Assembly (NCBI GenBank): GCA_051362555.1
Contig: CM120648.1
Coordinates: 19,960,587 to 20,024,586, forward strand
From: Lingula anatina
Taxonomy: Eukaryota > Animalia > Brachiopoda
Length of the DNA stretch: 64,000 nt
Direction of reading: 5' to 3'
In this document: piece by piece, positions 2,834 through 53,645 of the stretch
Position numbering within the stretch: position 1 is the stretch's first letter
How the letters are laid out: every line of letters begins with the position of its first letter
Notes under the pieces: model-generated
What the model saw: only the letters and a program-made list of their open reading frames with translations
What the model was told of the DNA's origin: nothing
Databases searched by the model: none
Program-made: the position numbers and the translations under genes

Positions 2834-3770
2834 ATGGAAGCCATGTTAGGGCAGTCTAGACGAGGTGTAAATCCAAGATCAGGACAGGTGACAGTACAGA
2901 CACAACCTCCATTAGCTGAACAGGAAACAAATACAACATCAGCTACACATCCTCATGTTTTCTTAGACAAGGCAGAATGTGTGCGTTCCTTCAGGGCTAA
3001 ACTGGAAGATGATAGAGAAAAAACCTTCATATCTGGGTTAGCCATAGATAAGGAACACATGTTTGTTGTGGATAATAATAACAACAGAACAAAAGTATTC
3101 ACACATGAAGGACAATTTAAGTTTGACATTAAAGTAAACAAACCATGGGATGTGGCTGTGTCACAGACTGGTCACCTGTATATAACATCATGGGGTGACA
3201 GATGTGTCCAAGTGTACTCCACCAGAGGTCAGCAGGTGACAACCATGGGTCAGGGTCTACTGGAGTCACCATGGGGTATTACACTGAACAGACAAGGTCA
3301 TGTGATGGTTTGTGACACAGTAAAGAAGTCTATCTTCACATTCAGTGGACAGCTCCTGAACACTATTCCACACAGTATGTGTAGATACCCAATGTACATC
3401 ACAGTGAACAGTGTGAATGATAACATTGTGATATCAGACTGGGGCAGTGACATGTGGAGACACTGTGTACATGTGCTGTCACCTACTGGTGATCATCTGT
3501 ACAAGTATGACGACGGCAGAGAAGGCAGTAAACTGAGTTATCCACGTGGAGTGTGCACAGACAGCTATGGTCACATCTTCATTGCTGACTTTAGTAACCA
3601 CAGGATAGTGGCACTGAGTCCACAGGGACAGTTTATCAGATACATTGTCACTAAGGATGATGGGTTGTGGTATCCCTGGGCAGTAGTCATCAACCCTGCT
3701 ACTGGTCATCTGGTGGTGGGAGAGAGGTTTGGCAATGTTAAGACATTCAAGTATACTGAACTGAAACAAG
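2834..3770 (+). CDS. NHL-repeat beta-propeller exon (TRIM2/3-type NHL, no RING/B-box)
   Basis: NHL repeats PWDVAVSQTGHLYIT, PWGITLNRQGHVMVCD, PMYITVNSVNDNIVISD, PRGVCTDSYGHIFIAD and PWAVVINPATGHLVVGE. Ends at a consensus donor CAAG|GTGAGT (phase 1); the unspliced frame stops at 3778. Confidence 0.9.
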
Positions 3771-4630: not shown

Positions 4631-4699
<69 letters not shown>

Positions 4700-4823
4700 C
4701 TGGATAAAAACCTTGATGAAATGGTTTTGACCACCTTTTTGGAACTTTTAAACTGCAGGCTGATGGACCCACATATTTATGTCATACACACTAAACGTAG
4801 ATGAGAAAGAATATATCACCATG

Positions 4824-4897
<74 letters not shown>

Positions 4898-8781: not shown

Positions 8782-8867
<86 letters not shown>

Positions 8868-11800
8868 CAAAGATTAAAAGTTTGAATAGCAGCTTCATTG
8901 GAATTACATTTACCTCAGGCTCTGCCAAGGAGGTTATATTTTCACCCCTGTTTGTCTGTCATCAACATAACTCAAAAAGTTATGGACTGATTTTGCTGAA
9001 ATTTTCAGGAACTGTCAGAATTGGGCCTAATAGGACAATGATTAGTTTTTAGTGGTGGTCTTTGTCAATAATCAATCAATAATCAATAATAATCAACAAT
9101 TGCTGCCTTGGCAGAGGTCTGCACTCTCGGTGGTTTTCTAGTTTTGTTATGTTTTCCTTTACAATTTTTTCTCAAAAACTTGCATTTGTGACTTTTAACT
9201 CTCATCCGCTCAATGCTCTGCACATTTTCTGTATTTCCACATAAGCAATTGTATTGTTTTCTATGTCTTTAAACATTATGTAATATTATTTTATGCACTG
9301 TCATCATTTTTCAAATATTGAGACTTTCATCATGTGACTTTGGTCTCTCATGGTCCTGAAACTGTAATCTTATTGAAGGGGTGGATTGAGACCATCTTCT
9401 GGGTCTTCCGGAAGACAGCCAGGTTATTAAGCTGATATTAACTGGTATCTATTTTTTTCTGTTGGAAGACCATCAATATGGAGGATGGATCAACATAGAT
9501 ACTTTGGAATACTGTCAGAAAATATCTCAGGGTCCACTCCTGTTATTGACCATGTTACCTGTTGTGCATGATTAAAATTCAGTGTTGACTGACAAGTATT
9601 ATTATATACATATATATAAGCATTATTTTTTATTGCATCAAAATTGACAAAATTACCTTTTTTGCATCTTTATTTTCTGTTTTTTGTCTGTACATTTGAC
9701 AGCTTTGCTGCCTTGTTTACTGTTAGTGACCAATTTCCATTGAACCCATAAGAATTATTAGTGAGAATGAGGCACCTGCCCATCAGGCAAGTACAATATG
9801 TCTGTACATCTATTGCCCTGCTCCAAATGTACTTGGTCTGCTCCAAATTTTAAAAAAATGGGTGTTTATAAAATGTATTCTGAACAGTCTATAGGCAGAT
9901 TCAGTACAATGGCGTATGTATTTGTAGGTTGATTAGTTATTAACTAAAGAAAAAAAATTCATGTAATAATCTTAATAGTTATATACATAATACATGTATG
10001 ATGATACATTTCATCACAATATGATGCAAGCACCATCAAATGGAAACAAAAATAAACTTGTTATTAAACCAACTCAACAAATGTTTGGGCCAAGCAGATA
10101 TTTAGCATTGTACAATATACATGTACATGCTGATTGCCATTTCAAGTCTAAATTAAACAAACATCAATGTCGCCTACAAAACTGATACAACTGCACCAAA
10201 TATCTCTTGATATATGAAATACTTGTTGAAATGATGTTTTCAATAGAACTTATTTTTTATTTTATTTTTTTATTTAATCATAAGAAAAACATTCTAAAAT
10301 GTTGAGTCCCATTTCTTAGTATTATCATGATGCTTCACATATTATATATATCAAGGCTGTTGCAATGTTTTTTTAACTAGTAAACAAAATCTCTTACATT
10401 GCTACAACACATCATCTACTTGCTACAATTTTTACATCTGATGGTTTTTAGAAGTTACTGTCCCTGTGATTCATCAGCTAATATTGTTTTTATCTCAAGG
10501 TCAAACAGGCCAAAATCTCCTAAAAATGGGGGTTTAAAAAATATATATATTTGTGCCAATTTTTAGAAACTACACCGACCTAAGTGGGGGATTACATTTT
10601 GGGACTTCATCTTCGGGAGTTTGGGGTCAATCGTGCATTTTCACAGGAGAGGCAGCCGTTAGATGCCAAAGCTGAAAACTCTCTATTAAACCGGAACCCT
10701 TAATACAAGAGACCTCTTGTTTTTTGCATTACGTAGAGCTTGTCAAGCTCAATTAATACTGGGGTTGGAATCCATTTTTTTTGTTTGTTTTTGATATGTA
10801 GGTTAGGAGTTGTGCTATATAAAAAAGTACATTTCGATATTCAGTAGTGAAGCAAAATGTGAAATACTCAAAAACTGGCAGAGATACACCCATGGTTACT
10901 ATTGACCTTGAATAAGAAGTCACATACTGGCAGCCAAACTGTGACCTTGAAATTGACCTTTGACCTACTTTTTCATCTTAAACTAAGTCTTGAAAATTTT
11001 TTGCCTCTTTTATCTGCAAAAATGGCAGAGATACACTTATAGTTACTATTGACCTTGAATAGGAAGTCATATACTGGCAATCTTACTCTACGCTGCTTTG
11101 TAATCTGGAACATAGTCGATCTTACACGTCAGACTTTGTGTGCAAATCGACTTTGTGATTTATGAAAAATGTCTGTATACTTCACTTTGTTCTTCAGCAG
11201 TGATTCAGTATCCAGATTACACACCCTTTTTATCTATCTATCTATTTTACTCGAAGTTTGTTTTACCCTGATATAAATAAGGCACCATAGTATTTTTGGG
11301 AATTTCTCAATTCAATTCAAAAATTTAATTAAGCTGCGATTTATCGACTTTTGTCATCGTGAAAATGTGAGATTTTACATAACACACTGTTACTCTCAAG
11401 CACATATGCAGGCATCCACCTCTTTAGATTTTCTCTCGCTTCCTCTCTGCTATCACTTCACAATAAATATAACGTCTGCAGACATCATCGTTCACCTTAT
11501 CCATGAGTCCTTTTGTCAATCTGAAGCATAACATATGTATTACCAGGTGAGTTTAATGAACGGCTTCGCCGATTGTGTGAAAGTGGTAAGATTCCAGTAT
11601 ACCGACAGCGAGTAGCTATTGTTGGACCTTACGGTGTGGGGAAGACTTATCTCGCCAAGCGCCTCATCCATGAGGAATATATCAAAGAAGAAGATGCAAA
11701 TACAACTGGCGTGAATATATACCGCCATAGGTGTGTTGTCCATAAAGCTGGCCGATCCTGTTGGATCAGAGGAAAAGGTAAGCAGAATATAGGAAAACGT

Positions 11801-14800
11801 TTGACACATATGGAATATGTTTATAAAGAATACAAAGAACAGAAGATAAGACATTTTCAATTTTACCACATAATTCACAATAAGGAATTATACATACGTG
11901 TACGTGTGGGTGTCGAAATGTGTCCTTCCCTATCTTAGTATGGTAGACGAGGGGCTGAGTGAAATAGTACCTAAATAAGTGGTGCCTTTGTATTGTTATC
12001 AATCAATTAACATACATGACACTTTACAATCTACTCCTACAGCCCATTGATTATTTTTTAACTGGGTACAAACACTATAATTTCATTCTTTGTAAAAACA
12101 CCATGCTTTATTCTACTCAATATTGAATTGAATTTTTCAACGGTGTAGCCTGATACGTACACTCAGAAAGGGTACATTTAGATACAACGCTTGATCTACC
12201 TGTATGATCCTTCCAACTATTCTCAGATGATCCAAAAGACCAGTTTGCACAAAACATGGCAATTGGAGTACAGAATTCAGATACGTTTTGTGAGCCGGAC
12301 TTAACAGTATTGGACCAAACGCCACTAGAGGAATCCCCACCAGATTCAGAAGAGAATATTAATAACATGCTGACAAATAGAGGTATTGTACATGATTGTC
12401 TCGAATAGTTCATCTTGGTGCAATTTAAACAGATATTTGTAGTTATTCTTCTTTTTTGCCAAGAGATTCCACCTTCTATGTGTTTTTCTTTGGCCATTCC
12501 ACATATATGTGCCTTGAAAACATTTTTGTTTACTTCAAGGTTGATTCTTTTTCTGTTAGAATGTTGTTTGATATTATTCTTCTCTTTATTCTACAGCTGC
12601 TTCCCCTGATGACAGTGAATCACCTGCCTCTCCTGACAAAGCAGCAGGTAAGTAGTTCACATGTAGTAAAACAAAATTCTCGTGTATTGCTCAGAATGTT
12701 CGAGAGTTTTTCTTAGCTTGTTGATAAGGTATGTGAGTTTCTATCTTCTTATTTTCATCATACTGGGACTTTGAACTCACATGGGCATGAAGCCTGGTGG
12801 TAATCAAATTTTCTTAATGTCCATGTTTTTAATAGAAGATAATTAAAATTTTGTGGTATTTATACAGTTGACCATTATGTTATATTGCATCAAAAACCTA
12901 CTTTGTGCACTATCACCATAACGTTATAAAAAGAAAACTGTTACCTATTTTATATTTACAAAAAATGATTCTTAGGATTGACAAACAGCTTAAATTAGAA
13001 AAACCAGCTCTTTTGAATTATCCTTTTTATCGAATTATGCATTTTTTGTGAAATTTTTATTTATCTCATTCTGGTGTGAGCTTGAACTCTCATGGGCCTG
13101 AAGCCTTATGCTTTTACTTACATCGTTATATACTGTTGTGCATAATTAAATTTTGGGGTTGACTGTGCAGTTAAGCATTGTATTACATTAGAACTGACAG
13201 CCTCCTATTTTGTGCATTATTATTTTCTGCTTTTTTAAAATTGTGACTTAGATATTTCATGGGCCTGAATACCGTTGCTAGTCACATTTGGGTGACAAGC
13301 CTCTAATCTTCCATTGGGTAACTACTAGCTAAATTCAGAGCTATAAGGTCACTTGCCTAAATTAAGTTTCAAGTGGCAATAAAATGAGATCATATAAAAC
13401 ACACATGTTGAGATTCCCTGTAAACTCCCATAGGTTAAGTTTTCTGCCAGATAACAGTGTCCATAATAGGGAAGCAGTGATAATTATGCAGATAAATGTT
13501 GTTTAATTTTGCAAATTAGTTTTCAAAAAATTATTTTGTATAATGCCAACATTAATGCTAGTTTTAAAAGCAGCTTTACTGAAATGTTTTGTTTTTAATT
13601 TTTTTCAAACACTGAGGGTTTCAACTCAATTTTTAACTCCCCTCCACCTGAAGCTCTGCACATTTTCTGTTTTCCCACAAAAGCAGTTGTATTGGTATTT
13701 ATGTATTTCAGCATTATGTAACATTATATTATTCTATGCACTGCTTTCATATGTCAAATATTGTGATTTTCATTACTAGTATGTGAATTTGAACTTTCGT
13801 GGTCCTGAAACTGTAATCTTATCATAGGGGCAGATTGGGATCGTCCTCAAGGTTTTCAGGCAGACGGTCAGATTTTAAAGTTTACATTGACGGGTATCTA
13901 ATTTTTTTGTTGGAAGACCATCTAAAATGGAGGGTGGATTAACAAAGATATTTTAAAATACTGTCAGAAAATACATTTGGATCCGCTCCTGTTATTGACC
14001 ATGTTACCTGTTGTGCATGACTTAAATTCAGTGTCGATTGACCGTGCTATTACAAGTATTATTTATTATTGCATCAAAATGAGAAATTAACCTATTTTTT
14101 GCATCTTTATTTATTTATTTATTCATTTATTTTGTCTGTAGACTCGTCTTTCAAGAAATACATGCCTTCAAGAAATCGACGAAAACTGGAAGTGCATGTT
14201 TTTTGCACTGTTTTTCCTGTCATGCCCATCATAAACACTGTGTTGTCAAGTAAAAGGAAGCGTCTGATACAAAGTATCAAATGCGGCATTGACGTGCTTG
14301 CTTGCGATGTGTTCAGTACACTTTGTTTACACTGACAAGTCGAGGTCAGAAATGCACAATGTTTTTCTATGTAATTACGCAGTTTCAGTTTTGATTAGTG
14401 AATTTTCTTTTATCTGCATGGTCATTTTCCGAACATTTGAATAAGCCACGAAATATTTCTCATCGGAAAATCACCCAGCAGCTTTCCAAGTACAAGCGAG
14501 TGACGTCATGATGCACTTCCGGTTTTCGTCAAGATCTTGAAGGGATTAGCGTTATGGTTTGCTGCACATTTGAAGCGTTCTGTCTCAAAATGTACTTGAC
14601 TGCTTGGATTGAAATTTACAGAACTTATTCTTCACATGATATCACACATATGTGCTTAATTTGAGAGCTTTAGCTGTTATATATTTTCTACAGTGCCCAT
14701 TCAAAATTGAAAAAGAGCTATTTTCCGTCAATTTTTCTTGAAGGGCAGGTCTACATTTGACAGATTTGCTGTCTTGTTTTATCTGGGTACAAACACGACA

Positions 14801-15763
14801 ATTTAATTTTCTGTAAAATAAGTCTTCTTTATATGACTGAGGATTATTTTTCTTTTTGCCAAGGGATTCCACCTTCTATGTGTTTTTTGTTGGCCATTAT
14901 ACCTTATGTGCCTTGAAGACTGGGCACTTGATACCAATTATACTTGATCTTATTAGACGCATTTTCGATGTAATTTATTTATTTTTATACAATATTTATA
15001 GACCAATATCCCAAAGTTATATGTTAAAATTTTGTAAAGAAATTCCTTTATCTTAGCCACATTTTTGTTTACTTTAAGATTGAGTAATTTTCTGCTAGAA
15101 TGGTGTTTGATATTCTTCTTCTCTTTATTCTACAGCCGCTCCACCTGCCTCTCCTGACAGAGCAGCAGGTAAGTAGTGCACATGTAGTAAAACAAGATTC
15201 CGTCTTTTGCTCATAATCTGCAAGAGTTGTTCTTAGCTTGTCGATTAAGTATGTGAGTTCCTGCATTCTTATTTTCATCAAACTGTATTAATAATGTTAT
15301 ATTAAAATTGACTATACCTTACAATTTTAATTGATTTTAATGAATGTTAAAACATTCAGTATTTATCACCCAGTTATGTTTTGAGCTTACTCACTTGTAT
15401 TCAACAGAGAGGATACATTTTTAAGAAAAAAATGTTTTTTTTTTTGGAAATTGCCGATAAACCTTCAGAAACAGATGAAAGCTTCTAATTTATTTGATAA
15501 CTGTTTCACAAAGTTAATTGACACTAAATACATTCAAATTTTGTCAATGATTACAATACTTTTTTATGCTAAAAAGTTTTATTTTAACCGCACTGTTTAT
15601 TGTACAGTTCTTTTCAAAGGTGAAAGTGGATCTCATACCTCTGGGGAAGAAAACATGAGTAGTATAAGAATGTTGACGATATGTCGATGTATGAACAGTC
15701 CCTGACAAATGAAATAAATTAGATTGAAAGCATGTCTATAAAGATTAAGGTCTAGTCTCTCAC

Positions 15764-15794
<31 letters not shown>

Positions 15795-27700: not shown

Positions 27701-30700
27701 GCTCTCATCTGGCAAACGATTTGTTGCAGAAAGACAGGGCTCTGAGGATGGGACAACCATCTTTGAGTCCTGATTATATCCTACTGAGCACCTGCGACAT
27801 AAATTGGAATGTGCATTGCAGAGGAGAACCAATTCCTAAATAATCTTGACCAATTCCACCACGCTCTTTAGGCGGAATGGGACAATATCCCACATAACAG
27901 AATTGTTGCCCATGTTGAAGGCTTGTTGCGCCATCTACAGGAGATAATTGCAGTACGCGGTAGACGCACACGCTGTTAGCACATGATCTTTAACGAGCGC
28001 ACCCTAATGCTAATTGTGTGTGAATTTGGTGACATTTGATGGCGTCTTTTCAATTTTATAGACATTTCTTTACATCTGTAGAAATCACAATGAAACAGTC
28101 GAATTGAGGGGTACCTCTTATAAATTTAACTAAATGGTATAAAATGTGTATATTTTCACCACTATTTTGGATTTTTTAAACCATGAATCATGTTAGACAC
28201 GGTATCCGTAATAAAAATCACAATTTCTAACAGTTCACAGCTGTGAGGTGATCATTTGTAAATAAAAGTACATGGAAATGGGGGTGGGACAACCTTTTTG
28301 ACCAATGTTGTATACAAACAGACATGGCGTACAATCTACAAATATACCACCATATGTCCGTCCTCGGTGGCTACTACCTTTCACATTCTCTGTTAGCGTC
28401 AAGTATGAATTGATGCTGCCATTTTGCTTTACGATGTCGTTGATAACCCAATTCCGTACGTACCACGTCTATGCAGTCATTGCATGCTATTTCGTTTGAA
28501 GTACACTATGTTTTTATGTCACTTCTTCTTTTATTTTAATGTGTAAAGGAAATGAAGGAAGAAATAGCACAAGAAAGTCAAAGAGACGATCACAAGATCT
28601 ACGATTCTTTCATCTTGTTTCTACTGAGCCATGGTACCGAGGGTGCTGTTTATGGAACGGATGGCTATCCTTTACCCTTCAAATATATCAAAGCCATTTT
28701 GAATAACAGGAACTGTCTTGGCCTGTCGGGCAAACCGAAAATGATATTTATTCAGGCTTGCCAGGGAAGTAAGTTATGGAATGTATTACACAAGCTTGAA
28801 TACCTGCGATGAAAATAACATGCAAAATTATTAAACAAATGTATTGAGATATTAAACTGTATTAACAGTCTGTCTCCTTAAAATTATATTCAGCCACACG
28901 AAACGAATGACGCTTAGTATTATGTAATTGTTTAATTAGTTAATACTGATATCAATTCTAACTTATATGTAAACATATAATCCACATAAGGGTGTATGGG
29001 GTGTTTCATTATTTTTCCATATTCACCCAGAGAGATGGGACAGTGGGACACTCCTGGACGGACAAACAGTTCAACAACCACAGCAAGCACCACCTGCAGC
29101 AAACCTTGGTGATGAGGTACCCGATGCGCCACACGAGATTCCAAAGCCATCCAATGATCCGACTATGTCCGATTTTCTCGAGGTCCATGCGACGTCACCA
29201 GGTACTTTAACCGTGTTTCTTTGTATGCCATTTTACTTAGGCCTTACAAATGTGTTTTTCATCAGAAAAAAAAAATCAAAATGATAAGGTGCACGTGGTG
29301 ATGCTGGGATTATGGCATTTTGCCTCAGGTAGAAGATGGTGTGCATTTTGTGGTCTATCGACATATTGTGGAGAACTGTATTATACGTGTATACTTTAAA
29401 ATGCTCACTACATTACTGCACCAGTAAATACTGAAAATGGTGCATGTATTTTTATACAGTATCAAATAAAATATATGTGCCAAATTTAATTAAAATTTAC
29501 GTACATTTTTGCCATAATGCTTTTAAAAATGCTTTCAAGATCACTATGAAAAACGAAAGTGTGTCGAGATGTTACCTAATTGTATTTGGGAAGCTGTCAG
29601 ACGATTTCTTTCGAAAAAAGACTTTGTAGCTTATGCAAATGTTGAGAAAAAAACATGCCGATTATGGAAAATTCAATTATCAAAATTTAAACTACGTAAT
29701 TCGACAGATTTTAATTTAATTTAATTTAAAAATCGCTATCGTGTATTTCTGACATTGAATTCTCAGTGTGCACAAAATGTAGGCATCGAAGGCATTCATG
29801 AATGTCGACACGTTTGATTCTTTGAATCAGACGCTTCATGTTACTTGATAGCGCAGAGGCATGCCAGGGAAAACAGAGGAAGAAAAACAAGTTCTGGTTT
29901 TTCTTGATTGAAGGCTTCGATTTGTTGAAGGGCAATTCTGTATAGCCTGGTTTCCAAAGATCGTGTGGCAGGCATATCAGCAAAACAAAATGCATCGCCA
30001 AGGACCGGAATGCCATGGCAAAATGTTTTAAGTTTACTTTGTTATTTTGATACAAATAAGCTTCCGGTTGACATAGATTTGACTGGTCTCCAACTTTCCA
30101 TGCTGCACTGTGCCTGACCGAAAAAAAAAAAGCCTTAAAATGAGTAGTGATTCAGTGTTCCAATGATGCCTGCGATGGCTAGAAACGTGACCCGTATTAT
30201 TGGCCTTTTGGAGATCATTTCAGGTCGGTTCACTGTAACACTATCGGCAAATATACTTTACTAATAGTTCCTCGATCTATGCGATTTATGAAATTTGCTT
30301 TTCCGCACTCTCAGTGAGACTAAGTACTGTTATATTAACAAAATAAAAATAAACAGTACCGTTGCATCTACGAGTAAATAATACGTTAAGGCTTCAGTAT
30401 TTTCTGTTTCAGATTACGTATCTTGGCGACACACGGGAAAGGGAACATGGTTTGTTCAATCCATTGTCGATACATTTTATCGTGAAGCACACAAATATGA
30501 CGTTTTACAAATGTTGGTGAATGTAAGTACTGAAATAACATGAACTACATTATTTTACATTGAAAGTGTGTTAAATTCATTAGAACACCAATCAAATATA
30601 AAACATAGCTGCCAGAAGAAGTGACATGTCGTAAGAGGTGACTTATGTAAATACAGTCCAACATGCACAGACTTTTTAAGAACCAGCGAAATGCTCTTCT

Positions 30701-33476
30701 GTTTATTTTGACAGTTTAATCAGAACTGTTCACTTTATGTAATATTTTATTTCACCAGGTCAATCACGCGATCTCTCAAAAGCAAACAACAATGGGCAAT
30801 AAACAGGCACCAGAGATAGTTACCAGCTTACGAAAGAAAGTTTTCTTCAACATAACTCCAGGTAAGCAAAAAGAATCACATCTTCCCGAGGTGTATTCGG
30901 CCGAATAATAAAGACCCGAGATCAAAAGTAAGCAAAAACAACAAACCTGGAACGTGTTAAGGTACAAACAATGCTGCCAGTCCTGCTGAAGATCTCATCC
31001 TTTTATCAAATGTCTCAAATCTCCCACCCAGTTGCAGACCCCACCTACAAAATTGTTTCCCAACTTCAATAAATCATTCCCAACTAAAGCTGGAACTTCA
31101 AGGTTATGATCTTCATAAGGTTATTTTTCTCATCAATGTTATTTCTATGTGTTTCCACCTAAATTGCACCACAACTCCTAGCATTCACGCACCTCACAGT
31201 CATTTATCAGTATATACTTACTCCTCCTGAAGTGATTTGGGATTACATTGAATCAGGTTATCCTTTGGGCGGATTGCTGGCACAATTTAATCTCCTTCTT
31301 ACAGATTTCAAATATTCAGTGTTACATGTTATCCCTACATCTGATCTTCACAAAACTCTTGTAATTTACGATCTTTTTTTTATCCCAACCTGGTCTCGGT
31401 TGATTCTAACATTCCAAGAGAGTTCTCTGTGGCACTTCATTGATGCTGTTATCGCACATGTCCAACATTTTGTTCGTGGTGCTCTTTTAGGTATATCTTA
31501 TATTCAAGATGTTTTCCACATTTTACCGATTATCAACTGCGTCCATCCCTTAAAGGCCCAGTGGGTCACCTGTGACCCACACGTTTGACACGTCACGACC
31601 CACACCACACAAAATGAATCCACTTCATTTTACCATTTCCTATTCCTTATGTACTAGTTTATCCTTGTTGACCAATTAGAAACTAGATCATTATCCTTCA
31701 CTTCACTCAAATATGTCTGCCTCCATAAGAAGGAGTTAATGCTATTGTCTAGTGGGTTTTTATGTGTCTTTATTGTCATCTCAAGGTAAATAATAATTTC
31801 AATATTCTGCCTTTTCATTATAAATACAATAGTCTTAAACCACACAGAAATGTTTTATACAGTTGTTAGCTACGCTTCCAGGATTAAATTTATTTTTTCA
31901 TGTTGTTATTGTAATAAAAAGAGGTTTGTGATATCTTGAAACTTAGTCATTTGTTTACCTCTAAAGCCCAGTGGGTCACCGGTGGAACATAACCAAAAAC
32001 TAGGTCAATGTTGCCCAAAACATTTTTTTCAACATTTATTGATAAATATGCTTATTACAACCCTATTACCTAGGCATTAAACTTTTCATGCAAGAAAAAC
32101 ATGTCCTGGAGTGATCTGTTTTATTATGAGAAATGTTTGCCAATAGGTGCAAGTTGTTCGTGCCAGATTTTTTAATCTATGAGTAAAGCTATGCAATGGA
32201 TTATATTGGAGAGATTTCATGATTCGGCCATGTCCCGTATACTAGATGATATCTGTTTCATTGGACCTCAAAATTCCAAGAAGTGTCAGGTTGATTTTTC
32301 TTGTGTTATGCACATGGATAAACGTTTCCATTAACGCAGTAAAAACCTTTACTCTGACCACTTGTTTAACGTAAACAACCTTTACTCTGACCACTTTTGT
32401 TTATTTTATCTCATCGAAATAGATTCAATACAAATGAAACCTTGGATAGGCTTTTAGGGTTTAATCTGAAATAAAATTTCAGGCATCGGTCAAACGTGTC
32501 TAATTTGGTTCAGTTTTGTTGTGGGATCTGGTTGATTGGGCGAGTAATGACCCACCCACTTATTGTCCATGTGGTTCAAGTATGGTGATTTTGATGATCA
32601 AGGCAACTGCTTACTCCCTTGTTTCATAAAGTTATCTGCTATTCCAGGTTCTCTGTTCGAACCAGTAATCTCATTGTACAACCTTAAATTACTCCTAATG
32701 TGCCCCCTAGTCATGCGATTCCCAGATTATAACTTACTTTGATGTGTTTAGGATCTTATTATTTTTTTACTATTAAAAATGATAATTTTCAGTCATATGC
32801 ACTTTACCTCATTTGCCTTTGAGCAAAAACAGAGCTGTGTTGTGCTAATGATCATTTGGCTACATAAAACAGCAATTTAGATAATTGTGTTTATGTAGAG
32901 AATGTCTACATCAGTGAGATTTAAGTCATCCAGCTTTTTAGCTGCTTGATATTTACCCGCATTGTTACGTAGTGCAGTTTAAGCAGCTACACTGGAAGAT
33001 TACTTGCTTCACTATTTCATTTTTATTTGGACACATTCCACCTTCCCGCATCACCCGCCTTAGTCCTTTTGTTTTTCTCTATTTTTTTTCTTTTTTCACT
33101 AACCAGAGTCTCTATTTCTGCGCCAATAACTATAACTTTGTACATATAACCCTCACTGGGGTAGCGCTAACACTCGCCAGTTTAGCCAAATGCTAAAACT
33201 TGCTGAAATTGGCTAAAGAAAAAGGGCTTGATTTGACTTGTTGTAGTCAAATTATAACCATTTTGATAACAGTTTGACAAAAAAGTGGTGATTTGCCTAA
33301 GAGAAAAAAAAATAGCTAGCGCTACCCTAGCCTCACCTGCCTTTGTCGCCATCGATGCTGATGCCATGTACTTTAACTCTGAGTGGAAAACCATATACAC
33401 TTCTGTCTTTAAAGCTGCAGAACCAACGAAAAAAAAGGCCCAGCTGGCTTGATCAAATTATTCTTTCAAAACTGAT

Positions 33477-33511
<35 letters not shown>

Positions 33512-36500
33512 TGTTTTAAGAGATAATAACTCTTCGTTTTGGCAAAATAAATGAATTTTCCTGGAGTAAACAACACTTTTCCCATACTTACCAATGGTTA
33601 ATGAATCCATTTTTACATTCAAAGTCCCTGTTTTTTTTCTAAAAAGTTTGTTTTTTTGTTAAAATCTCTTAAAAGATTATAACAGAGTACAGCTATCAAT
33701 GGAAGTCACGTGATCTGAAGACAAGCTCAGATATCAGAATAATAGCTTTAACTGCTGTTTTTGTGGTAAAACAGAATATATTATATTTCTATGAGTTGTT
33801 CACAATGTATTTATTGTGAAATAAAGATATCATACAAAGAGTTATTATCCCTTTAACTATATGCAATACAGCTAACACATTTCAAGGAAAACTGATAAGT
33901 GTACCTAAAGCACAGATCAAATGACTAAAATGCAGGTTGAGCTTCAAACTTTTGGGTTTGATAGACCTATCATAAATGATGTGCATGGGGACTTTGGATT
34001 TTAAAAGTGGACCTGGGGAATTGGGCTGTGCCCGGGAGGAGGGATAAATAAATATTTCTACATTTTAATTTCTGCTATCTTCTCCTATACAATTAGAGGG
34101 ATTGCATTTCAATGTTGATAGTCAACCAAACATCAGGGATGCATGTGCAGGGGAAAATAGGATTTTCAATACACTTGGGGGTTGGGCTGTCCCTGAGGGT
34201 GGTTTATACTAATTTTTTTTCACATTATAATTTTTGATATTTATCCCAGACAATAGCAGTGAGGAAGTTGACATATTTATGTATTGAATCTGTTTTTTTT
34301 TTTTTTTCTTTTTTTTTTGATCAGGAGAAATATAGTTCTATCAATTGATTTGACAATTCTTTTTCAATACTTTGCTATAGGAGACAGAGATGACGGTATG
34401 TCTCAAGAAGAAAGAATTTTAAAATTACCTGCACCACCCCAGACCAGGCACTCTGCCTCACAAGGCAGGGAGGAGATCAGAACAGATGATCTCAGAGATA
34501 CATACCTGAGGAAATTCTCCATCACTCCAGAAGGTGGACATGTGCATCTGAAGGAAGTTGGAGTATTCCTGTTAGTGCCTCCAGGAGCTCTGGCTGAAAC
34601 TACAGAAATGTTCATTGGTATAAGTTGGAGAGAAGAAGACATGCCACCGCTGCCACCGTGTCAGACTAGAGCAAGTCCAGTTGTTGTCTGCGGACCACAT
34701 GGCCTGACATTCAGAAAACCAGTGTACCTGTCATTTTATCACTGCATATCAGGCACACGTCAAAGAAAGATGGGAAAGATCTGTCCTGAAAATCTGACAC
34801 AGAGTTCAAGAATGGACAATCCATTTTACGTATGGCATTCAGTAACTCACTTAAATGACCCTTGTAAGTGGAAAGTATTGAGCAGTGATTCTGCTGTGTT
34901 GACAAACACCAAATGTGTCTTAACCGTGAACCAGTTCTGCAAACACAGTTTGTCATGTGACAGTAAGCGTCTTTCTGCCTTGGTGTTTGGGTCATTTCAG
35001 CCTCGACATGTCTCCTTGCTGAAACTGATGGTGTGCTGTGTCAATGACACCAGAGATGAGGTAGAGGTGAGAATTAACATATAAGTGGTTTTCATTTTTG
35101 AGTGTTTATGACTATTCCTGACATATTGGCATAATATCCGTGCTGTGGATGATTGCAAATAACTGAGGTAAAGTTGTAATTGGTCACTGCATTAAGTTCC
35201 TTTGTTAATTTTCATTCTTTTGAATAATAATGTGCATTGTATTTCAGTTGGCTATTTGCATGACATAACCCAATAAATCATTTTGTCATCATGTCTGTTG
35301 CATTTGTTTGTGGATATCATTTTTTGATACCCCTAAAATGCATGTGTGTTGCTATTGAAGGGTAAATACTATTTGTTTGAATGTTGTAGAATGTGACAAC
35401 TAAAGCTAAGGAATCTCTCCAAATGGAGATGTTAGATCTGGAAAAGAAGTTTCAATTCTTAACTTGTGAGTACAGTGAGAGTAAAGAAAAGGAGTCCTAT
35501 GATGTCAGCCTATCGTTGGACAGGTTTGAGACAAAGTGGAACATGCATGAAGATTGTCCTAGAAAGGTTGGTATTAATGAGTTATATTTTTCAATATTGT
35601 GCAACAAAGATGTGTACACTATAATATGCAGGCCATTTTATGCACTGAAAAAGGTGGGCTTTTATTGCTTATATTTTACAAAGATATTGTGTAACAAAGA
35701 TATCCCATATAGGCGTAAAGGGCCTGTAGTGTGATGATTTTGGCAGATTAGTGTGAAAATATCAAAATTAGTTTCTTAGATAATGATAGAGAGAGCTATA
35801 ATAATAGATAATGATAAAGAGAGAGTGATAGTAAATAAGTCTAAAAAAGACCCTTTTGCGTTTTAGGTGATAAAGTATGTGAAATTGCTGAAAAATGAAA
35901 CAGAACATGTAATATATACCCTGAGGCCTAAAATGACAGAGGGACTTGATGTGTTTGATTGCAAGATACACATAAAGCAGGAAGTATCTGAGGATCAGGA
36001 AGAGGATATCAAAGTGCTGACATCCACTGTGTTTGACATCCACTGGATGTTACCAGTAAGTATAGACAGGGAATTGGGTTACTATGAAGTGAGGAGACAT
36101 TATCTTATGTTCAGTGTGATATTGTCTTTGTATGATATCATAGTAAGTAAAACATTATATTGTTGTTGCATCTATTGGCAATAATCAACCCCAAGCTTCA
36201 GCATAGTAACTATAACATTATACTTTTGTTGCATCTATTGGCGAGGTCCAACCCAGAGCTTCAGCATCATTCAGGACCTAGATTAGTAATGACTAAAATG
36301 CAATGTCTGTAACTGTCTTGTTTCTTGTCCACACATTTAAAGGGCCAAGAGCTCTCCGTATGAAATCAATATTGCACAATAAATACATTGTAACTGCTCA
36401 TACAAATATAATATCATTCCATTTTACCACAAAAACGGCAGCTATAACAATAAATCTGAAATCTGTGCTTGCCATCTGACCATTTGACCTCCATAATAGA

Positions 36501-37270: not shown

Positions 37271-37325
<55 letters not shown>

Positions 37326-39764
37326 CCCATGATACATATGATAGGTAATTAATGTCCATATATTTGATCATTTTGGGGAAATCCAAGATGGATTGGATTT
37401 TATAGGCACTTCTAAGGCAAATGAGGGTAATTATGATATTTGTCAAAATAATTAGGGGTACACACTTGTTACCCACCAGATATATATCTCAATGTCACAT
37501 TTTGGTATTTTTAATGTGTGAATTTCAACTGCAAACAGCCTGAAGCCATTTACTAACTAAGAATTCTGAATGCCTATATACAAAGAGAAACATAGAAATA
37601 TTATTATAATTGCTGGTTTTTATGTTGATCATCATAGTCACCGCCAATTGACTGAAGACTAATGATGCCAATATATTTATATATTATTATTATTTGTTCT
37701 TACAGCACCTGTTTAAAACATCCAGAGAAACCTCTGACTTGGGCGAGTCCAGCCTTATGGATGGCAAGTCCATTGTTAAGAATATACAGAAGAAAAGGAA
37801 ATACAGCGATGACGATGATGATGATGATGATGATGACAGCAGTTACCATCATGGCAACCCTTCAACATCAAAACAAATCAAGTTGACACCAAGCAATACA
37901 TCCCCTGCTAAAAGAAAAAATGCTACATCAACTAAAAAATGGAAGACTTCAGATGATGAAGATGTACGTTCCTTTGAGCTACATGTATTCCTAGGGACTT
38001 TTCTCAAAATAATTAAAGATTTCCTTAAAACATTTTTTCACAATCTGATGATTTCATATTTTACGAATGAAATCGGTGGGTTCCATGAATATTGAGAACC
38101 TATAATTTGTGCACTTCTATCACCGACAATATTCAAGGAAAGCTGTGTTAGCTATTTTATTCTCTAATAAAGAATAATATTGCACCGAACTATGTACATC
38201 AGTATTTTCTGCTTTTTGTCTGTTCGTTTGACAGTTTTGCAGAATTGTTTGTATTTAACTTGTGTTCTTCTTCTTTTTTCTGTATTTATTATTGTTTATT
38301 ATTAATACCATTATTTCAGGACCAACTAAGATGGGGGCCAGTCTCTGGCCAGGAACGGGAGAAGCAAGGTGACGCCAACTACCAAACAAGTGGCAATTTA
38401 GTTCACGAATCCCCACCTTTACCAGTCACTGCCCACCGCCTGGAGGAACAACGTGGCGTCCACTTTCAAACAAGGAGGAAATCGGGCCATGACCCTGTGG
38501 CTACTGGGGATCAAGACCAGGGTGTCCCCAGAACAATGGAAAACCAAGCTCTTAACCCGGCCCATGGGGATAATCAGTTAGAAAGGTTACCTGCGGCAGT
38601 GACACATGAGATTGCTGGAGTTCTAAGACAGATCCCTGCTAATTCAGGCAACACAAATGTTACCCTCAATTTGCAACTGGTTAACCAATATTATAACTCA
38701 GAAAAGGCATCAATGACACACATGAAAGAGAACGATGTGTCAACATCTTTTCACAAACATATTCCTCCACGTTTGAAAAAACAACTGAATGAGACACTTT
38801 CTCAAGATGATGTATGGGACCAAGTAAAGAAGATGCATGGCATTTCAGATGAAGCCCCACGTCCTCCCGATATTGTGGCTTCTTTGTTGTCTCAAGTTAA
38901 GGGTTCTATTGCATCTTTCATCAGTGTGTTGTTAAAGTTAAAAGAACGCCACAGAGAAGGACAGCAAGACATTCCACAAAATTTGATTGATGAAGTCAAG
39001 GTAACTGACAATTTGGTCAAATGAAAGAATTAGTTTTTTTTTTCAAATTTTACACGCAAGCATACAGAATGATATCATGTTTTGGCTTCAGAGATTTTAT
39101 ATTTTGCAAACATCTGTAGTATTTGTTAAGATGCTCCTCAGCAAATCTATATCTTCAAAATCCAAGTGAAATATCATTAGAAGGTATAAAAAGGAAAACT
39201 TAATCTACATGTTGCATATTATATTTTTTATATATTTTTAAACAATTAAAAAAATTTAAAAATGCAAATATCTGCTTGCTTCCAGCAGGGTGCTCTTTCA
39301 AAATTGAAGTTTATGATAAGGTGTAAAAATGCACTTGTCTACACAGACTACTTACTTGGCTTCTTATATTTCTTTCCTAGGATGGGCTTAAGGGTGAAAT
39401 GGAGTATAAGAAACTAAAACAGAATAAGATCCACTTTTCTGAAGAACTTTATATTGATATTGGAAGTATTTTAGATTACTGTAATCAAGATGACATGGTA
39501 CCAGATGAAGAGATTACAGTGCTTAAAAATACTGCCAAGGAAAATCCACGAGATGCCTGTAGAAAGTTGTTTGAAAGACTAATTGCAAGTAACCCTGAAA
39601 AACAACCAATCAAATATTTAAAAGATGTCCTCAGAAAGTGCCAACATTGGCATCTGGCAGATGAACTAGAAGTTAGCCACCAGGATGTAGAGGATGAATT
39701 ACAGAAATATGAAGTTGGAGGTGATCGGGCTACTTGTGAAGAGCCATCAGCGATAGGAATTTAA
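2834..39764 (+). CDS. Multi-exon gene: NHL - Roc - COR - caspase - ZU5 - UPA - death-like domain - CARD protein (~2,060 aa)
   Basis: Predicted exons: 2834-3770, 11547-11777, 12227-12382, 12597-12647, 15136-15168, 15620-15658 or 15661 (weak), 16018-16263, 16649-16773, 22885-24055, 25765-25814, 26163-26333, 28549-28768, 29031-29201, 30413-30522, 30759-30861, 34381-35066, 35390-35566, 35867-36055, 37706-37963, 38320-39000, 39381-39764. All introns are GT-AG except one GC-AG. Phases match at every junction and no internal stop was seen. Confidence 0.7.
4827..4894. repeat. (TA)n microsatellite; others at ~8784-8863, ~40536-40594 and ~56772-56850; (ATT)n at ~4620-4697 and ~37275-37325
   Basis: Directly visible simple repeats. 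Confidence 0.95.
5331..7085 (+). mobile_element. Partial Helentron-like non-autonomous element with ~141-bp tandem array (6100-7085); another partial copy at ~10490-11085
   Basis: Its start CGCTGGCGGTAC.CATGGTTTTAGTCCCGACC matches 16839 onward. Unit TATCTCCAAAACTGGCAGAGATAGGTCC...GTGACCTTGAAATTGACCTTTGACCTAC is repeated about 7 times. Confidence 0.7.
7741..9720 (+). repeat. Deleted copy of the ~2.9-kb repeat family found at 41640-48990 (another part at ~12760-14120)
   Basis: Shares the TGTA.AGACACAGATGTGTCTGTACA hairpin, the (GTC)n head and long downstream blocks with 42978-45898. Confidence 0.8.
8910..9142 (+). mobile_element. Short Helentron-type (HINE/DINE-like) element
   Basis: 5' CTCTGCCAAGGAGGTTAT...TGTTTGTCTGTC, 3' inverted CTTGGCAGAGG followed by a short hairpin and a CTAGTT end, inserted in a T-rich site. 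Confidence 0.6.
11547..11777 (+). CDS. Roc GTPase exon with P-loop (G1) and switch I (G2)
   Basis: Acceptor TACCAG| (phase 1). Reads RVAIVGPYGVGKTYLAKRL (GxxxxGKT) and NTTGVNI (Roco STxG-like). Donor AAAG|GTAAGC. Confidence 0.85.
12227..15661 (+). CDS. Low-complexity insert exons inside the Roc domain (12227-12382, 12597-12647, 15136-15168, 15620-~15661)
   Basis: Symmetric phase 1-1 exons of 156, 51, 33 and 39/42 nt with AG acceptors and GT donors. They encode D/E/S/P-rich peptides (AASPDDSESPASPDKAA; AAPPASPDRAA). The last exon has a weak donor. Confidence 0.6.
14165..14543. mobile_element. MITE with ~33-bp imperfect TIRs
   Basis: CCTTCAAGAAATCGACGAAAACTGGAAGTGCAT at the left end pairs with ATGCACTTCCGGTTTTCGTCAAGATCTTGAAGG at the right end. 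Confidence 0.65.
16018..16773 (+). CDS. Roc G3 and G4 exons (16018-16263, 16649-16773)
   Basis: [29 protein letters not shown] is the canonical Roco G3/switch II signature; FWLNSI and VLIIGTHKD (G4) follow. Splice sites are canonical. Confidence 0.92.
17200..17465. repeat. ~265-bp segment repeated at ~21065-21329, possible MITE
   Basis: Two near-identical copies. The first has GAGTTAC...GTAACTC ends. Confidence 0.55.
17490..20760. mobile_element. Non-autonomous CACTA/EnSpm-like DNA transposon
   Basis: TIR CCCAGATAGCAA / TTGCTATCTGGG and 2-bp TSD TT (empty site TAGTCCCTTATATCTCC seen at ~21345). Subterminal arrays of CCGACGTCGG-type palindromes at both ends. Confidence 0.85.
22885..24055 (+). 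CDS. Roc G5 and COR domain exon
   Basis: FAISN (G5), LPVSWIKLE, HHRQGDILHF, VIIDPLWL, FLVPSML and FPTGLFHRL are typical COR blocks. Acceptor CATAG|, donor TCTG|GTAAG. Confidence 0.9.
24448..25481 (+). mobile_element. Internally deleted piggyBac-type element
   Basis: TTAA TSDs at both ends and TIR CCCTCAAG(T/A)GACC. Retains a transposase C-terminal Cys-rich relic CPSNTDRKMSHACVSCNQPVCPKH...CEDC (~24700-24810). Confidence 0.85.
25765..30861 (+). CDS. Caspase (peptidase C14A) p20/p10 exons (25765-25814, 26163-26333, 28549-28768, 29031-29201, 30413-30522, 30759-30861)
   Basis: YKNDSEPRGRALIINN, ERDGT, catalytic LSHG, GKPKMIFIQACQG, linker DEVPDA, PTMSDFL, YVSWRHTGKGTWFVQ and KQAPEIVTSLRKKVFF. 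Confidence 0.93.
26655..28310. mobile_element. Tc1/mariner-derived foldback element with ~700-bp inverted arms
   Basis: TA flanks and ends CAACATTGGTCAAAAAGGTTG / CAACCTTTTTGACCAATGTTG. Both arms carry a decayed SPDLNPIEHLW-like transposase motif (minus strand ~27155-27200, plus strand ~27765-27810). Confidence 0.8.
31230..32700 (+). pseudogene. Old Ngaro/DIRS-type RT relic in the caspase-ZU5 intron
   Basis: IDAVIAHVQHFVRGALLGISYIQDVFHILPI..VHP resembles IDDA...GALLAKxDIxxAFRxLPVHP. After an interruption come KCLPIGASCSCQIF (~32130) and ILDDICFIG (~32240). Confidence 0.55.
34381..36055 (+). CDS. ZU5 and UPA-like exons (34381-35066, 35390-35566, 35867-36055)
   Basis: ITPEGGHVHLKEVGVFLLVPPGAL...SPVVVCGPHGLTFRKPVYLSFYHC matches ZU5. 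KRLSALVFG...LKLMVCCVNDT resembles the start of the UNC5/PIDD/ankyrin UPA domain. Confidence 0.85.
37706..39000 (+). CDS. Acidic/basic linker exon (37706-37963) and linker plus death-like domain exon (38320-39000)
   Basis: KKRKYS-D10 and PAKRK motifs, then HIPPRLKKQLNETLSQDDVWDQVKKMHGIS...SIASFISVLLKL, a divergent death-domain-like helical pattern. Phase-0 GT-AG junctions. Confidence 0.65.
39381..39764 (+). CDS. Terminal exon encoding a CARD-like death-fold domain
   Basis: KLKQNKIHFSEELYIDIGSILDYCNQDDMVPDEE...PRDACRKLFERL...YLKDVLRKCQHWHLADELE follows the CARD pattern. Acceptor TTCCTAG|, stop TAA at 39762-39764, AATAAA at 39932. Confidence 0.75.
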   Translation, partial: DGLKGEMEYKKLKQNKIHFSEELYIDIGSILDYCNQDDMVPDEEITVLKNTAKENPRDACRKLFERLIASNPEKQPIKYLKDVLRKCQHWHLADELEVSHQDVEDELQKYEVGGDRATCEEPSAIGI

Positions 39765-53305: not shown

Positions 53306-53645
53306 AATAGCATTTTAATGAATTGACAGACATAACGTTTTCGTTGATATATATGTATGTACGACAATGAGCCTCACCATTCTTTTCATCGCTTAACATA
53401 CAGACATGTACCACGTGCACACTTTTACTTTCGCACACAATCTCAGTCCAAGAAGTTATAATGCTCAGTCTTACGCACGGCCATTATGCACTTACTCACC
53501 TCATTTAAACACAAACATACACTCACACAATATACTACATATAAGAAAACGCACATGGGAGAGCGTTCAGTTTTGTGCAACAATTGGTTTTATGTGCAAA
53601 ATTAAAGCAAGAGGAAAATGGAAAAAGGAGGAATAAAGTTCAAGC

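What the first reader, a model, noticed from the sequence alone, without database searches (positions are those of the whole stretch)
2834..39764. Single-chain Roco-caspase: NHL - Roc - COR - caspase - ZU5/UPA - DD - CARD
Seen in the sequence: about 21 phase-compatible exons form one stop-free ~2,060-aa frame carrying all of these motif sets in order. Established: Roco proteins (LRRK1/2, DAPK1, MFHAS1) use a Roc-COR nucleotide-dependent monomer/dimer cycle and usually carry a kinase or death domain; initiator caspases are activated by dimerisation; ZU5-UPA-DD is the PIDD/UNC5/ankyrin module; NHL propellers bind RNA or protein. Inference: this is an all-in-one sensor-switch-protease, where a propeller sensor and GTPase dimer switch gate an in-cis caspase sitting where LRRK2 has its kinase, and the death folds are C-terminal instead of forming an N-terminal prodomain. 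I do not recognise this architecture from any characterised protein.
Basis: partly seen in the sequence, partly recalled or inferred. Interest (0 to 1): 0.95.

Follow-up and report, generated by a model that had tools for sequence, protein, structure and literature searches.

The report
Shuffled Roco-caspase sensor of a brachiopod
Twenty exons of a gene, likely from the brachiopod Lingula, join into one stop-free 2,049-residue frame carrying a propeller domain whose binding face varies between gene copies, a LRRK2-type GTP switch, a caspase protease with intact catalytic residues and a ZU5-UPA-CARD tail; it likely works as a self-contained immune sensor that would switch on its own protease by pairing up.

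Summary
The gene is real. 20 exons (not ~21) give a 2,049-aa frame: NHL, Roc, COR, caspase, ZU5, UPA, a helical domain and a CARD. The 'DD' label failed every test I ran. RNA reads support 11 of the 12 junctions laid, including COR-caspase (5 reads) and caspase-ZU5 (6 reads; a minority, most reads there come from relatives that end after the caspase). No single molecule spans the chain.

Each module has a close Lingula relative in a different combination, and all three module borders are phase-1 introns, so this is a recent exon-shuffled member of a mix-and-match Roco family. The NHL top face is hypervariable (35 of 60 sites versus 2 of 44 bottom-loop sites), as expected of a pathogen sensor. 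The caspase groups with caspase-Y.

Roc-COR-caspase is already in print for bacteria, and a ROC-prodomain caspase for Owenia. I also found it in amphioxus and an anemone, on separate branches. This scan noted Roco-caspase-like genes before on other DNA. The NHL front and the ZU5-UPA-CARD tail on this core were not found in print. Verdict: new variant of a known kind; mechanism inferred.

The parts
2834..3770 (+). Exon 1: start Met, 44-aa leader and six-blade NHL propeller (aa 1-312), derived from the Lingula TRIM2/3-like NHL family; phase-1 donor
   Evidence: Pfam NHL; TRIM2/3 NHL structures E 2.5e-32; RefSeq P0010, P0011 and P0012 share the same start; about 50-68% identity to TRIM-NHL proteins
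11547..11777 (+). Exon 2: Roc G1 (GPYGVGKT, K345) and putative G2 (T366)
   Evidence: Pfam Roc; junction shared with P0010
12227..12382 (+). Exon 3: low-complexity insert inside Roc (phase 1-1)
   Evidence: tblastn of P0010, 94%
12597..12647 (+). Exon 4: Ala/Pro/Ser-rich insert (phase 1-1)
   Evidence: P0010 and P0001
15136..15168 (+). Exon 5: shorter duplicate of exon 4 (phase 1-1)
   Evidence: self-blastn 12520-12765 versus 15059-15285, 81%; junction peptides match P0010
16018..16263 (+). Exon 6: Roc G3 (WDFAGQ, D506)
   Evidence: Pfam Roc E 2e-8
16649..16773 (+). Exon 7: Roc G4 (GTHKD)
22885..24055 (+). Exon 8: end of Roc and the whole COR (aa 594-983); phase-1 donor = module border
   Evidence: Pfam COR-A E 2e-21; 322/390 identical to P0001; 5 reads join it to exon 9 (table 5c)
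25765..25814 (+). Exon 9: 17-aa COR-caspase linker with a GC donor
   Evidence: 35 reads across the GC-AG intron
26163..26333 (+). Exon 10: caspase p20 start (R1027)
   Evidence: Pfam C14; 18 junction reads to exon 11
28549..28768 (+). Exon 11: catalytic H1085 (SHG) and C1128 (QACQG)
   Evidence: Pfam C14 E 5e-19; reads
29031..29201 (+). Exon 12: inter-subunit linker with candidate cleavage Asp1162
   Evidence: reads on both junctions; alignment; the site itself is inferred
30413..30522 (+). Exon 13: caspase p10 (SWR 1191-1193)
   Evidence: Pfam C14; reads
30759..30861 (+). Exon 14: end of p10; phase-1 donor = module border
   Evidence: 120 reads from exon 13 and 6 reads onward to exon 15
34381..35066 (+). 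Exon 15: ZU5 and start of UPA; QF/C at 1443-1445 is a candidate self-cleavage site
   Evidence: Pfam ZU5; 218/229 identical to P0006; site placed by analogy with PMC3210808
35390..35566 (+). Exon 16: UPA
   Evidence: Atlas structure match; reads
35867..36055 (+). Exon 17: end of UPA
   Evidence: P0006 and P0008; 4 junction reads from exon 16
37706..37963 (+). Exon 18: acidic/basic low-complexity linker (phase 0-0; least certain exon, can be skipped without a frame change)
   Evidence: low read cover; 3 variant reads to exon 19; no listed read from exon 17; no homologue
38320..39000 (+).
   Evidence: 155/227 identical to P0008; death-domain tests negative or inconclusive
39381..39764 (+). Exon 20: CARD-type death fold, acidic tail and stop
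   Evidence: 14 junction reads

Best explanation
The gene encodes one NHL-Roc-COR-caspase-ZU5-UPA-helical-CARD reading frame, likely assembled recently by exon shuffling, and it likely acts as a self-contained cytosolic immune sensor whose own caspase would be switched on when ligand binding and the Roc-COR nucleotide cycle bring two chains together. Shown: the frame, the domain order, intact catalytic and GTP-binding motifs, spliced reads across the COR-caspase and caspase-ZU5 borders, phase-1 module borders, and concentration of paralogue differences on the NHL top face. Inferred steps: (1) the variable NHL face binds a non-self ligand (RNA or protein); (2) clustering favours the COR-mediated dimer, which in the bacterial Roco model is the GDP or nucleotide-free state; (3) dimerisation activates the caspase-Y-type domain by induced proximity and it cuts its linker near Asp1162; (4) the ZU5-UPA-CARD tail is a second output, freed by self-cleavage at Phe1444/Cys1445 as in PIDD1/NLRP1/CARD8 or by the caspase at Asp1263, and recruits CARD caspases or an adaptor to amplify cell death or inflammation.
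For: Frame and motifs. Reads on 11 of 12 junctions laid; 7 of 7 unlaid junctions in RefSeq models. NHL top-face sites vary at 35 of 60 positions against 2 of 44 bottom-loop and 30 of 160 other positions among four paralogues, Fisher p 5e-9 for top versus bottom; against P0010 the NHL is 227/268 identical while the adjoining Roc is 277/281. The top face is defined as the b-c and d-a loops and is the ligand face in Brat (PMC4015489). The caspase falls in a 20-row clade (SH-aLRT 98) with XP_013405490 and XP_013416922, which PMC11463336 names Casp.Y3 and Casp.Y5; that paper proposes caspase-Y acts in immunity and lists no APAF-1 for Lingula. The same Roc-COR clade carries HEPN or caspase effectors at the same border. 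Roc-COR plus caspase recurs on separate branches (10 changes for 12 rows; one clade rejected, p-AU 1.8e-9). Precedents for Roco immune receptors: bacteria (PMC8195603) and brown algae (PMC3341825, abstract).
Against: No read or contig spans more than one junction, and COR-caspase (run X4) and caspase-ZU5 (runs X5, X6) were seen in different runs; X4 shows 0 reads for the caspase-ZU5 joint. That joint has 6 reads, against 46 reads in X6 that leave exon 14 for a short stop-containing exon. Most reads are only 90-99% alike, so they may come from paralogues or other individuals. Low sense-strand cover in intron 14 in X6 (depth 1-9) would fit a read-through form that stops 15 codons after exon 14. 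In the bacterial model GTP binding gives monomers (PMC5714945, abstract), so the direction of the switch is not obvious. The QF/C site lacks the His or Ser-Phe-Ser of known sites, and I could not align it to a solved ZU5. No function has been tested, and no dN/dS could be computed.
Confidence: 0.5

Rival explanations
1. The working product is NHL-Roc-COR-caspase. The ZU5-UPA-CARD exons are a recently landed downstream cassette that is spliced on only in a minor isoform or in some haplotypes.
For: 6 joint reads against 46 caspase-terminal reads in X6 and none in X4; sense cover in intron 14 and a stop 15 codons after the donor; the ZU5 exon is 95% identical to one that follows a different Roc-COR in RefSeq.
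Against: The alternative terminal exon has no match in the window with up to 3 mismatches, and most exon-14 reads in X5 and X6 carry three substitutions (35 of 38 and 66 of 67 at 30790), so they are likely from other loci. The joint is canonical GT-AG and in frame, with 6 distinct read starts in two runs. All six tail exons stay open.
Confidence: 0.2
2. Activation is NLRP1/CARD8-like: the chain is pre-cut at the end of ZU5, and the front part (NHL-Roc-COR-caspase) is a tripwire whose cleavage or degradation frees UPA-CARD as the real signal; the GTPase is a scaffold or brake.
For: ZU5-UPA fold with a CARD at the C-terminus. The F-[C/S] pair is kept in 4 of 4 copies. Cys can act as the nucleophile, and Gln at the -1 position was tolerated in CARD8 and Nup98 (PMC3210808). 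Relatives carry the tail without any caspase (P0006, P0007, P0008, P0011).
Against: The structure matches are to UNC5-type ZU5-UPA, where the CARD8 Phe corresponds to a Leu. The site is placed by analogy only. This reading does not explain why a catalytically intact caspase sits in the chain.
Confidence: 0.15
3. The chain is a short-lived, near-neutral by-product of frequent phase-1 shuffling in a repeat-rich family, and its domains are not functionally coupled.
For: Modules have different closest relatives; this exact combination is absent from the RefSeq proteins found; the introns are rich in repeats; the caspase-ZU5 joint is seen in 2 of 3 runs.
Against: 2049 open codons with every catalytic motif intact; spliced expression; repeated Roc-COR-caspase fusions in at least four phyla.
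Confidence: 0.12
4. It is a non-immune regulator in which the NHL domain binds host mRNA, as in TRIM-NHL proteins, and links it to developmental cell death.
For: The NHL derives from TRIM2/3-like genes, and NHL top faces bind RNA in Brat.
Against: A fixed host ligand would predict a conserved top face; here it is the most variable part.
Confidence: 0.03

Closest known systems
Prokaryotic LRR-AP-GTPase(Roc)-COR-effector counter-invader proteins, including COR+CASPASE (PMC8195603, section 15 and supplements)
   Same: Variable repeat sensor at the front, Roc-COR in the middle, and a swappable effector (caspase among at least 24) directly after COR.
   Different: Here the sensor is an NHL propeller, the caspase is a metazoan caspase-Y type (the bacterial example seen is labelled CHAT), the gene has 20 exons, and a ZU5-UPA-CARD tail follows the caspase.
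Owenia fusiformis ROC-prodomain caspase CAH1787638.1 in the caspase-Y group (PMC11463336); its supplement also tags a Mytilus californianus protein as ROC
   Same: Roc domain in front of a caspase-Y-type caspase in a lophotrochozoan.
   Different: The passages read treat it as a species-specific oddity, do not mention COR or ZU5 (0 hits in the main text) and list no ROC caspase for Lingula among the rows seen. No NHL or C-terminal tail is described.
NLRP1 / CARD8 (FIIND = ZU5-UPA, then CARD) and PIDD1 (LRR-ZU5-ZU5-UPA-DD) (PMC3210808)
   Same: ZU5-UPA followed by a C-terminal death-fold domain behind a sensor.
   Different: Roc-COR GTPase instead of NACHT or none; caspase in the same chain; QF/C instead of SF/S or HF/S; an extra ~300-aa linker and helical domain; self-cleavage untested.
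LRR-ROCO candidate immune receptors of brown algae (PMC3341825, abstract only) and Trichoplax ROCOs with CARD or death domains (PMC4104024, passages)
   Same: Expanded Roco family with a diversifying sensor domain and exon shuffling.
   Different: In algae single LRR exons are shuffled; here whole domain modules are swapped and the sensor diversifies by substitutions on one face. No caspase is mentioned in what I read of either paper.
Lingula RefSeq relatives: LOC106159696 (NHL-Roc, partial), LOC106168600 (NHL-Roc-COR, other clade), LOC106167140 / LOC106171421 / LOC106175244 (Roc-COR-caspase), LOC106157231 / LOC106163288 (Roc-COR-ZU5-UPA), LOC106168738 (Roc-COR-HEPN), LOC106159462 (NHL...CARD-like)
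   Same: The same modules and the same module borders.
   Different: None of those found has all modules in one chain; all are named 'uncharacterized', and some may be truncated models.

Membership tests
Roco proteins | Roc GTPase domain with G1, G3 and G4 motifs | tested here: met
   Pfam Roc on exons 2 and 6; GPYGVGKT, DFAG, THKD
Roco proteins | COR directly after Roc in the same chain | tested here: met
Roco proteins | Nucleotide-dependent monomer-dimer cycle | not testable with these tools
   Known for a bacterial Roco (PMC5714945, abstract)
Metazoan caspases (C14A) | His-Cys dyad and Asp-specificity residues (Arg, Gln, Ser-Trp-Arg) | tested here: met
   R1027, H1085, Q1126, C1128, S1191-W-R1193 align with other caspases; the roles of these residues are recalled knowledge
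Caspase-Y group (PMC11463336) | Catalytic domain groups with named caspase-Y sequences | tested here: met
   Quick tree: 20-row clade SH-aLRT 98 and 11-row subclade 91, holding Casp.Y3, Casp.Y5 and the Lingula PARP-caspase; no named caspase-2 reference was included
Caspase-Y group (PMC11463336) | N-terminal CARD prodomain | tested here: not met
   The N-terminus is NHL-Roc-COR and the CARD is C-terminal; the paper itself places PARP- and ROC-prodomain exceptions in this group
PIDD1/UNC5/ankyrin ZU5-UPA-DD module | ZU5 followed by UPA | tested here: met
   Pfam ZU5; Atlas TM 0.78 over P0006 630-948, aligned part named UPA
PIDD1/UNC5/ankyrin ZU5-UPA-DD module | Death domain after UPA | tested here: inconclusive
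   No Pfam Death hit; hhalign at shuffle level; AlphaFold from 3 sequences (pLDDT 71, pTM 0.47) gave best Z 5.5 to histone folds, too shallow to exclude a degenerate DD
FIIND/PIDD autoproteolytic sensors | x-Phe-Ser autoproteolysis site at the end of ZU5 | tested here: inconclusive
   QFC here; QFC, KFC and QFS in relatives; no direct alignment to a solved site
CARD | Six-helix death fold closest to CARDs | tested here: met
   Top rows are CARDs, Z 9.0 / rmsd 2.4 / 79 aligned, on the 85%-identical P0008 model; hhalign 85% CARD versus 75% DD; Pfam CARD_2 below cut-off
TRIM-NHL proteins | RING, B-box and coiled coil before the NHL | tested here: not met
   The NHL follows a 44-aa leader, with the same start in three RefSeq models; no read test of upstream exons
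NLR/STAND receptors | NACHT or NB-ARC ATPase | tested here: not met
   The P-loop scores best as Roc; NACHT and NB-ARC are below cut-off

The most novel reading that the evidence does not exclude
Lingula builds a combinatorial innate-receptor repertoire on a Roco GTPase instead of a STAND ATPase: hypervariable NHL sensors are shuffled onto two Roc-COR clades and onto caspase-Y, HEPN or ZU5-UPA-CARD outputs, with combinations differing between individuals. This chain is its fullest form, a one-polypeptide inflammasome/PIDDosome in which the GTP cycle directly gates a caspase and a self-cleaved UPA-CARD amplifies the signal, in an animal with no reported APAF-1 or caspase-2.
Probability: 0.3. 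Interest if true: 0.85.

Novelty: new variant of a known kind. Interest (0 to 1): 0.62.

Why it matters
If the caspase reports the dimer state of Roc-COR, the protein is a natural read-out for an open question in the LRRK2/Roco field: which nucleotide and oligomer state is the active one. It would also give caspase-Y a concrete activation platform in an animal for which PMC11463336 lists neither APAF-1 nor caspase-2. It would add NHL propellers to the short list of diversifying pathogen-sensor scaffolds, and show animals re-inventing, several times, the sensor-Roc-COR-caspase design catalogued in bacteria.

Tried and rejected
No genome is held for this window, so paralogues could not be counted at DNA level and no dN/dS was run. 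Two early exon sets broke the frame: four donor or acceptor positions were misplaced, and a candidate exon at 18599-18673 was rejected because homologues join exon 7 directly to exon 8. The run search listed no indexed RNA holder, only 9 same-species raw-read runs; I laid 6 of the 9. In one search, 40 of 55 joint rows were hidden by repeats. The caspase-terminal exon seen in reads was not found in the window. Death-domain tests for aa ~1833-1922 gave nothing: Pfam, Atlas features, hmmsearch and hhalign with 28 death-domain rows from Roco-type hits, AlphaFold with Foldseek and VIA. The AlphaFold model of P0008 was poor overall (mean pLDDT 37) and Foldseek gave no E<=0.001 match; only its CARD region was usable. 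PDB sequence searches did not reach PIDD1, NLRP1 or CARD8. A single origin of Roc-COR-caspase was rejected on the Roc-COR tree (P0080 left out as a long branch; groups defined by architecture, but the test was run after the first tree was seen); gains and losses cannot be separated without a root, and some database models may be truncated. The 150 representatives were ranked by likeness to P0002 and are not a census. PMC7836458 and PMC2575513 had 0 hits for the Roc, COR and ZU5 terms. Earlier-findings look-ups by sequence and by place gave nothing.

Full report
1. What is in the sequence. Splicing 20 exons between 2834 and 39764 gives 6150 nt and a 2049-aa protein without internal stops; 18 introns are GT-AG and one (after exon 9) is GC-AG. 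The GTPase motifs (GPYGVGKT 339, DFAG 506, THKD 585) and caspase residues (R1027, H1085, Q1126, C1128, SWR 1191) are intact. UPA is supported through P0006, 87% identical over aa 1257-1609, whose Atlas model matches UNC5-like ZU5-UPA with TM 0.78. The last domain is a CARD-like death fold (top structural rows are CARDs, Z 9.0, rmsd 2.4, 79 aligned; hhalign 85%). The closest proteins to every module are Lingula anatina RefSeq models, so the source is likely Lingula; none is identical.

2. Is it one transcript? I laid 6 of the 9 listed same-species RNA runs on exons 8-20. Of 12 junctions covered, 11 have reads. In one search: COR-linker 5 (X4, table 5c, with one other letter at the joint), the GC-AG intron 35, then 18, 15 (plus 14 of a variant form), 29 and 33 within the caspase. 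In one search: exon 13-14 120, caspase-ZU5 6 (X5 2, X6 4, X4 0; side up to 69), exon 15-16 24 (plus 8 variant), exon 16-17 4, exon 18-19 3 (variant, five other letters between), exon 19-20 14. Exon 17-18 has none listed; exon 18 is phase 0-0, so the frame holds with or without it. Against the single chain: no molecule spans two junctions; reads are mostly 90-99% alike and so mix paralogues and individuals; 46 X6 reads leave exon 14 for a short exon with a stop; and X6 has low sense cover in intron 14. That short exon is not in the window, and most exon-14 reads in X5 and X6 carry three substitutions, so I read them as other loci. I put the probability that the full chain is made at about 0.75.

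3. A mix-and-match family. Each module's best match is a different protein: NHL and Roc P0010 (227/268, 277/281), COR exon P0001 (322/390), caspase P0059 (120/258), ZU5 exon P0006 (218/229), CARD exon P0008 (108/127). RefSeq holds NHL on this Roc (P0010), NHL on a distant Roc-COR clade (P0012), that distant clade with ZU5-UPA and no caspase (P0006, P0007; COR region 25% identical to ours), our clade with HEPN (P0001, P0003, P0005) or with a different caspase (P0002), and NHL with the helical-CARD end (P0011). The three module borders (NHL|Roc, COR|linker, caspase|ZU5) are all phase-1 introns, and similarity to relatives breaks at the same positions. I infer recent exon shuffling of phase-compatible cassettes. 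The NHL itself resembles the 3' end of the expanded Lingula TRIM2/3-like genes. Caveat: some RefSeq models may be partial.

4. The NHL looks like a diversifying sensor. Among four copies that share the leader, 35 of 60 top-face positions vary (23 with three or more states), against 2 of 44 bottom-loop and 30 of 160 remaining positions (p 5e-9 for top versus bottom; first pass). Top and bottom follow the loop definition in PMC4015489 (passages), where the top face binds the ligand. I chose the positions by repeat geometry after seeing pairwise alignments, without a structure. Lingula TRIM-NHL proteins show the same trend more weakly (mean entropy 1.7 versus 0.65 bits, p 0.04).

5. Relatives elsewhere. 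A HMMER search with P0002 (best 150 listed, of 9305 at E<=0.001) gave Roc-COR followed by a caspase in Lingula (P0002, P0057, P0059), Owenia (P0060, with a Bcl-2 domain in front), Branchiostoma floridae (P0072), Exaiptasia (P0077; its cluster member P0203 has HEPN in front) and two unnamed ENA proteins (P0066, P0103). It also gave caspase in front of Roc-COR in a bivalve (P0085) and in amphioxus (P0159). On a Roc-COR tree of 53 rows the 12 caspase-bearing rows need 10 changes, at least 7 forced by well-supported branches. One clade for the 10 with a C-terminal caspase is rejected (p-AU 1.8e-9), and so is pairing our protein with P0002 (p-AU 2e-6) (P0080 left out). The fusion has therefore been gained or lost repeatedly. 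In a quick caspase tree of 136 rows our domain lies in a clade (SH-aLRT 98) with proteins that PMC11463336 names Casp.Y3 and Casp.Y5, the Lingula PARP-caspase and an Owenia Roco-caspase.

6. How it likely works. Shown: architecture, intact motifs, spliced borders, variable NHL face. Inferred: ligand binding by NHL clusters the protein; COR dimerises (the GDP or empty state in the bacterial Roco, PMC5714945, abstract); the attached caspase is activated by proximity (general knowledge of initiator caspases, recalled) and cuts its linker near D1162; the tail is freed by ZU5 self-cleavage at F1444/C1445 or by the caspase at D1263 and recruits CARD partners. The self-cleavage site is placed by analogy: PMC3210808 (passages and section 7) puts it just before the last ZU5 strand, allows Ser, Thr or Cys as nucleophile and found Gln tolerated at -1, but I could not align it directly, and the closest folds are UNC5-type. 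I give the whole mechanism 0.5. Rivals: tail only a minor add-on 0.2; NLRP1-like tripwire 0.15; transient by-product 0.12; non-immune RNA regulator 0.03.

7. What is known. PMC8195603 (passages, section 15, and a supplement search with file 13 not searched and file 4 cut) describes bacterial LRR-AP-GTPase-COR proteins with caspase among at least 24 effectors, and flags Lingula as a polydomain outlier. PMC11463336 (passages, section 5 part 1, supplement searches) notes one Owenia ROC-prodomain caspase in caspase-Y and tags a Mytilus protein ROC in its supplement. PMC3341825 (abstract) and PMC4104024 (passages) cover algal and Trichoplax Roco expansions; PMC9334734 (passages) reports Roco-TIR proteins in Aplysia. 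Seven searches found no paper on NHL-Roco proteins, on caspase followed by ZU5-UPA-CARD, or on this Lingula family; the library lacks most subscription papers, including a Lingula immunome survey I only recall. Earlier notes of this scan report Roco-caspase-like and self-cleaving Roco genes on other DNA; I used them as leads only.

8. Verdict. A real, expressed gene and a new variant of a known kind: the sensor-Roc-COR-caspase plan is catalogued, while the NHL sensor with a hypervariable face, the ZU5-UPA-CARD tail in the same chain and the cassette family around it were not found in print. Interest 0.62; the boldest open reading has probability 0.3 and would merit 0.85.

Noticed in passing
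window 49547-54524 (- strand): LINE-type retrotransposon: a 292-aa upstream ORF, an endonuclease piece, a 951-aa RT ORF and a zf-RVT piece in separate frames.
   Followed up: partly
window 58676-62345 (+ strand): Second retroelement in a GC-richer block: ORFs of 402, 543 (RVT_1 plus weak RVT_3) and 289 aa, preceded by a 58-bp tandem array. Class not determined.
   Followed up: partly
window 19562-19720 (intron 7): Weak GIY-YIG hit (E 0.004); by recall this fits a Penelope-like element remnant. The rejected candidate exon at 18599-18673 lies nearby.
   Followed up: no
window 26651-28314 (intron 10): Long inverted repeat (706-bp arms, 85% identical), likely a non-autonomous DNA transposon inside the caspase region.
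   Followed up: no
window 6098-7096 and 20764-22357: Arrays of a 146-bp satellite in introns 1 and 7; shared repeats in the module-flanking introns could promote shuffling, untested.
   Followed up: no
P0129 (XP_013415815.1, Lingula): A caspase of the same clade fused in front of a RIG-I-like helicase: the same caspase cassette on another sensor. PMC8998645 may cover it (search listing only).
   Followed up: partly
P0060 (CAH1786849.1, Owenia) and P0203 (XP_020902336.1, Exaiptasia): Bcl-2-Roc-COR-caspase and HEPN-Roc-COR-caspase architectures. PMC11463336 lists CAH1786849.1 with an empty prodomain cell.
   Followed up: partly
P0002 and P0057 (Lingula): Their caspase site reads SACQS instead of QACxG, which may mean altered or lost activity, unlike the window's gene.
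   Followed up: no
P0004 C-terminus (LOC106170498): Roc-COR of the same clade followed by an Asn/His-rich tail with VQVG, which by recall resembles a RHIM; this would be a further output cassette.
   Followed up: no
window 37706-37963 (exon 18): Basic clusters flanking a poly-Asp run look like nuclear localisation signals (recalled pattern); the RefSeq relatives have a different, Gln-rich linker here.
   Followed up: no
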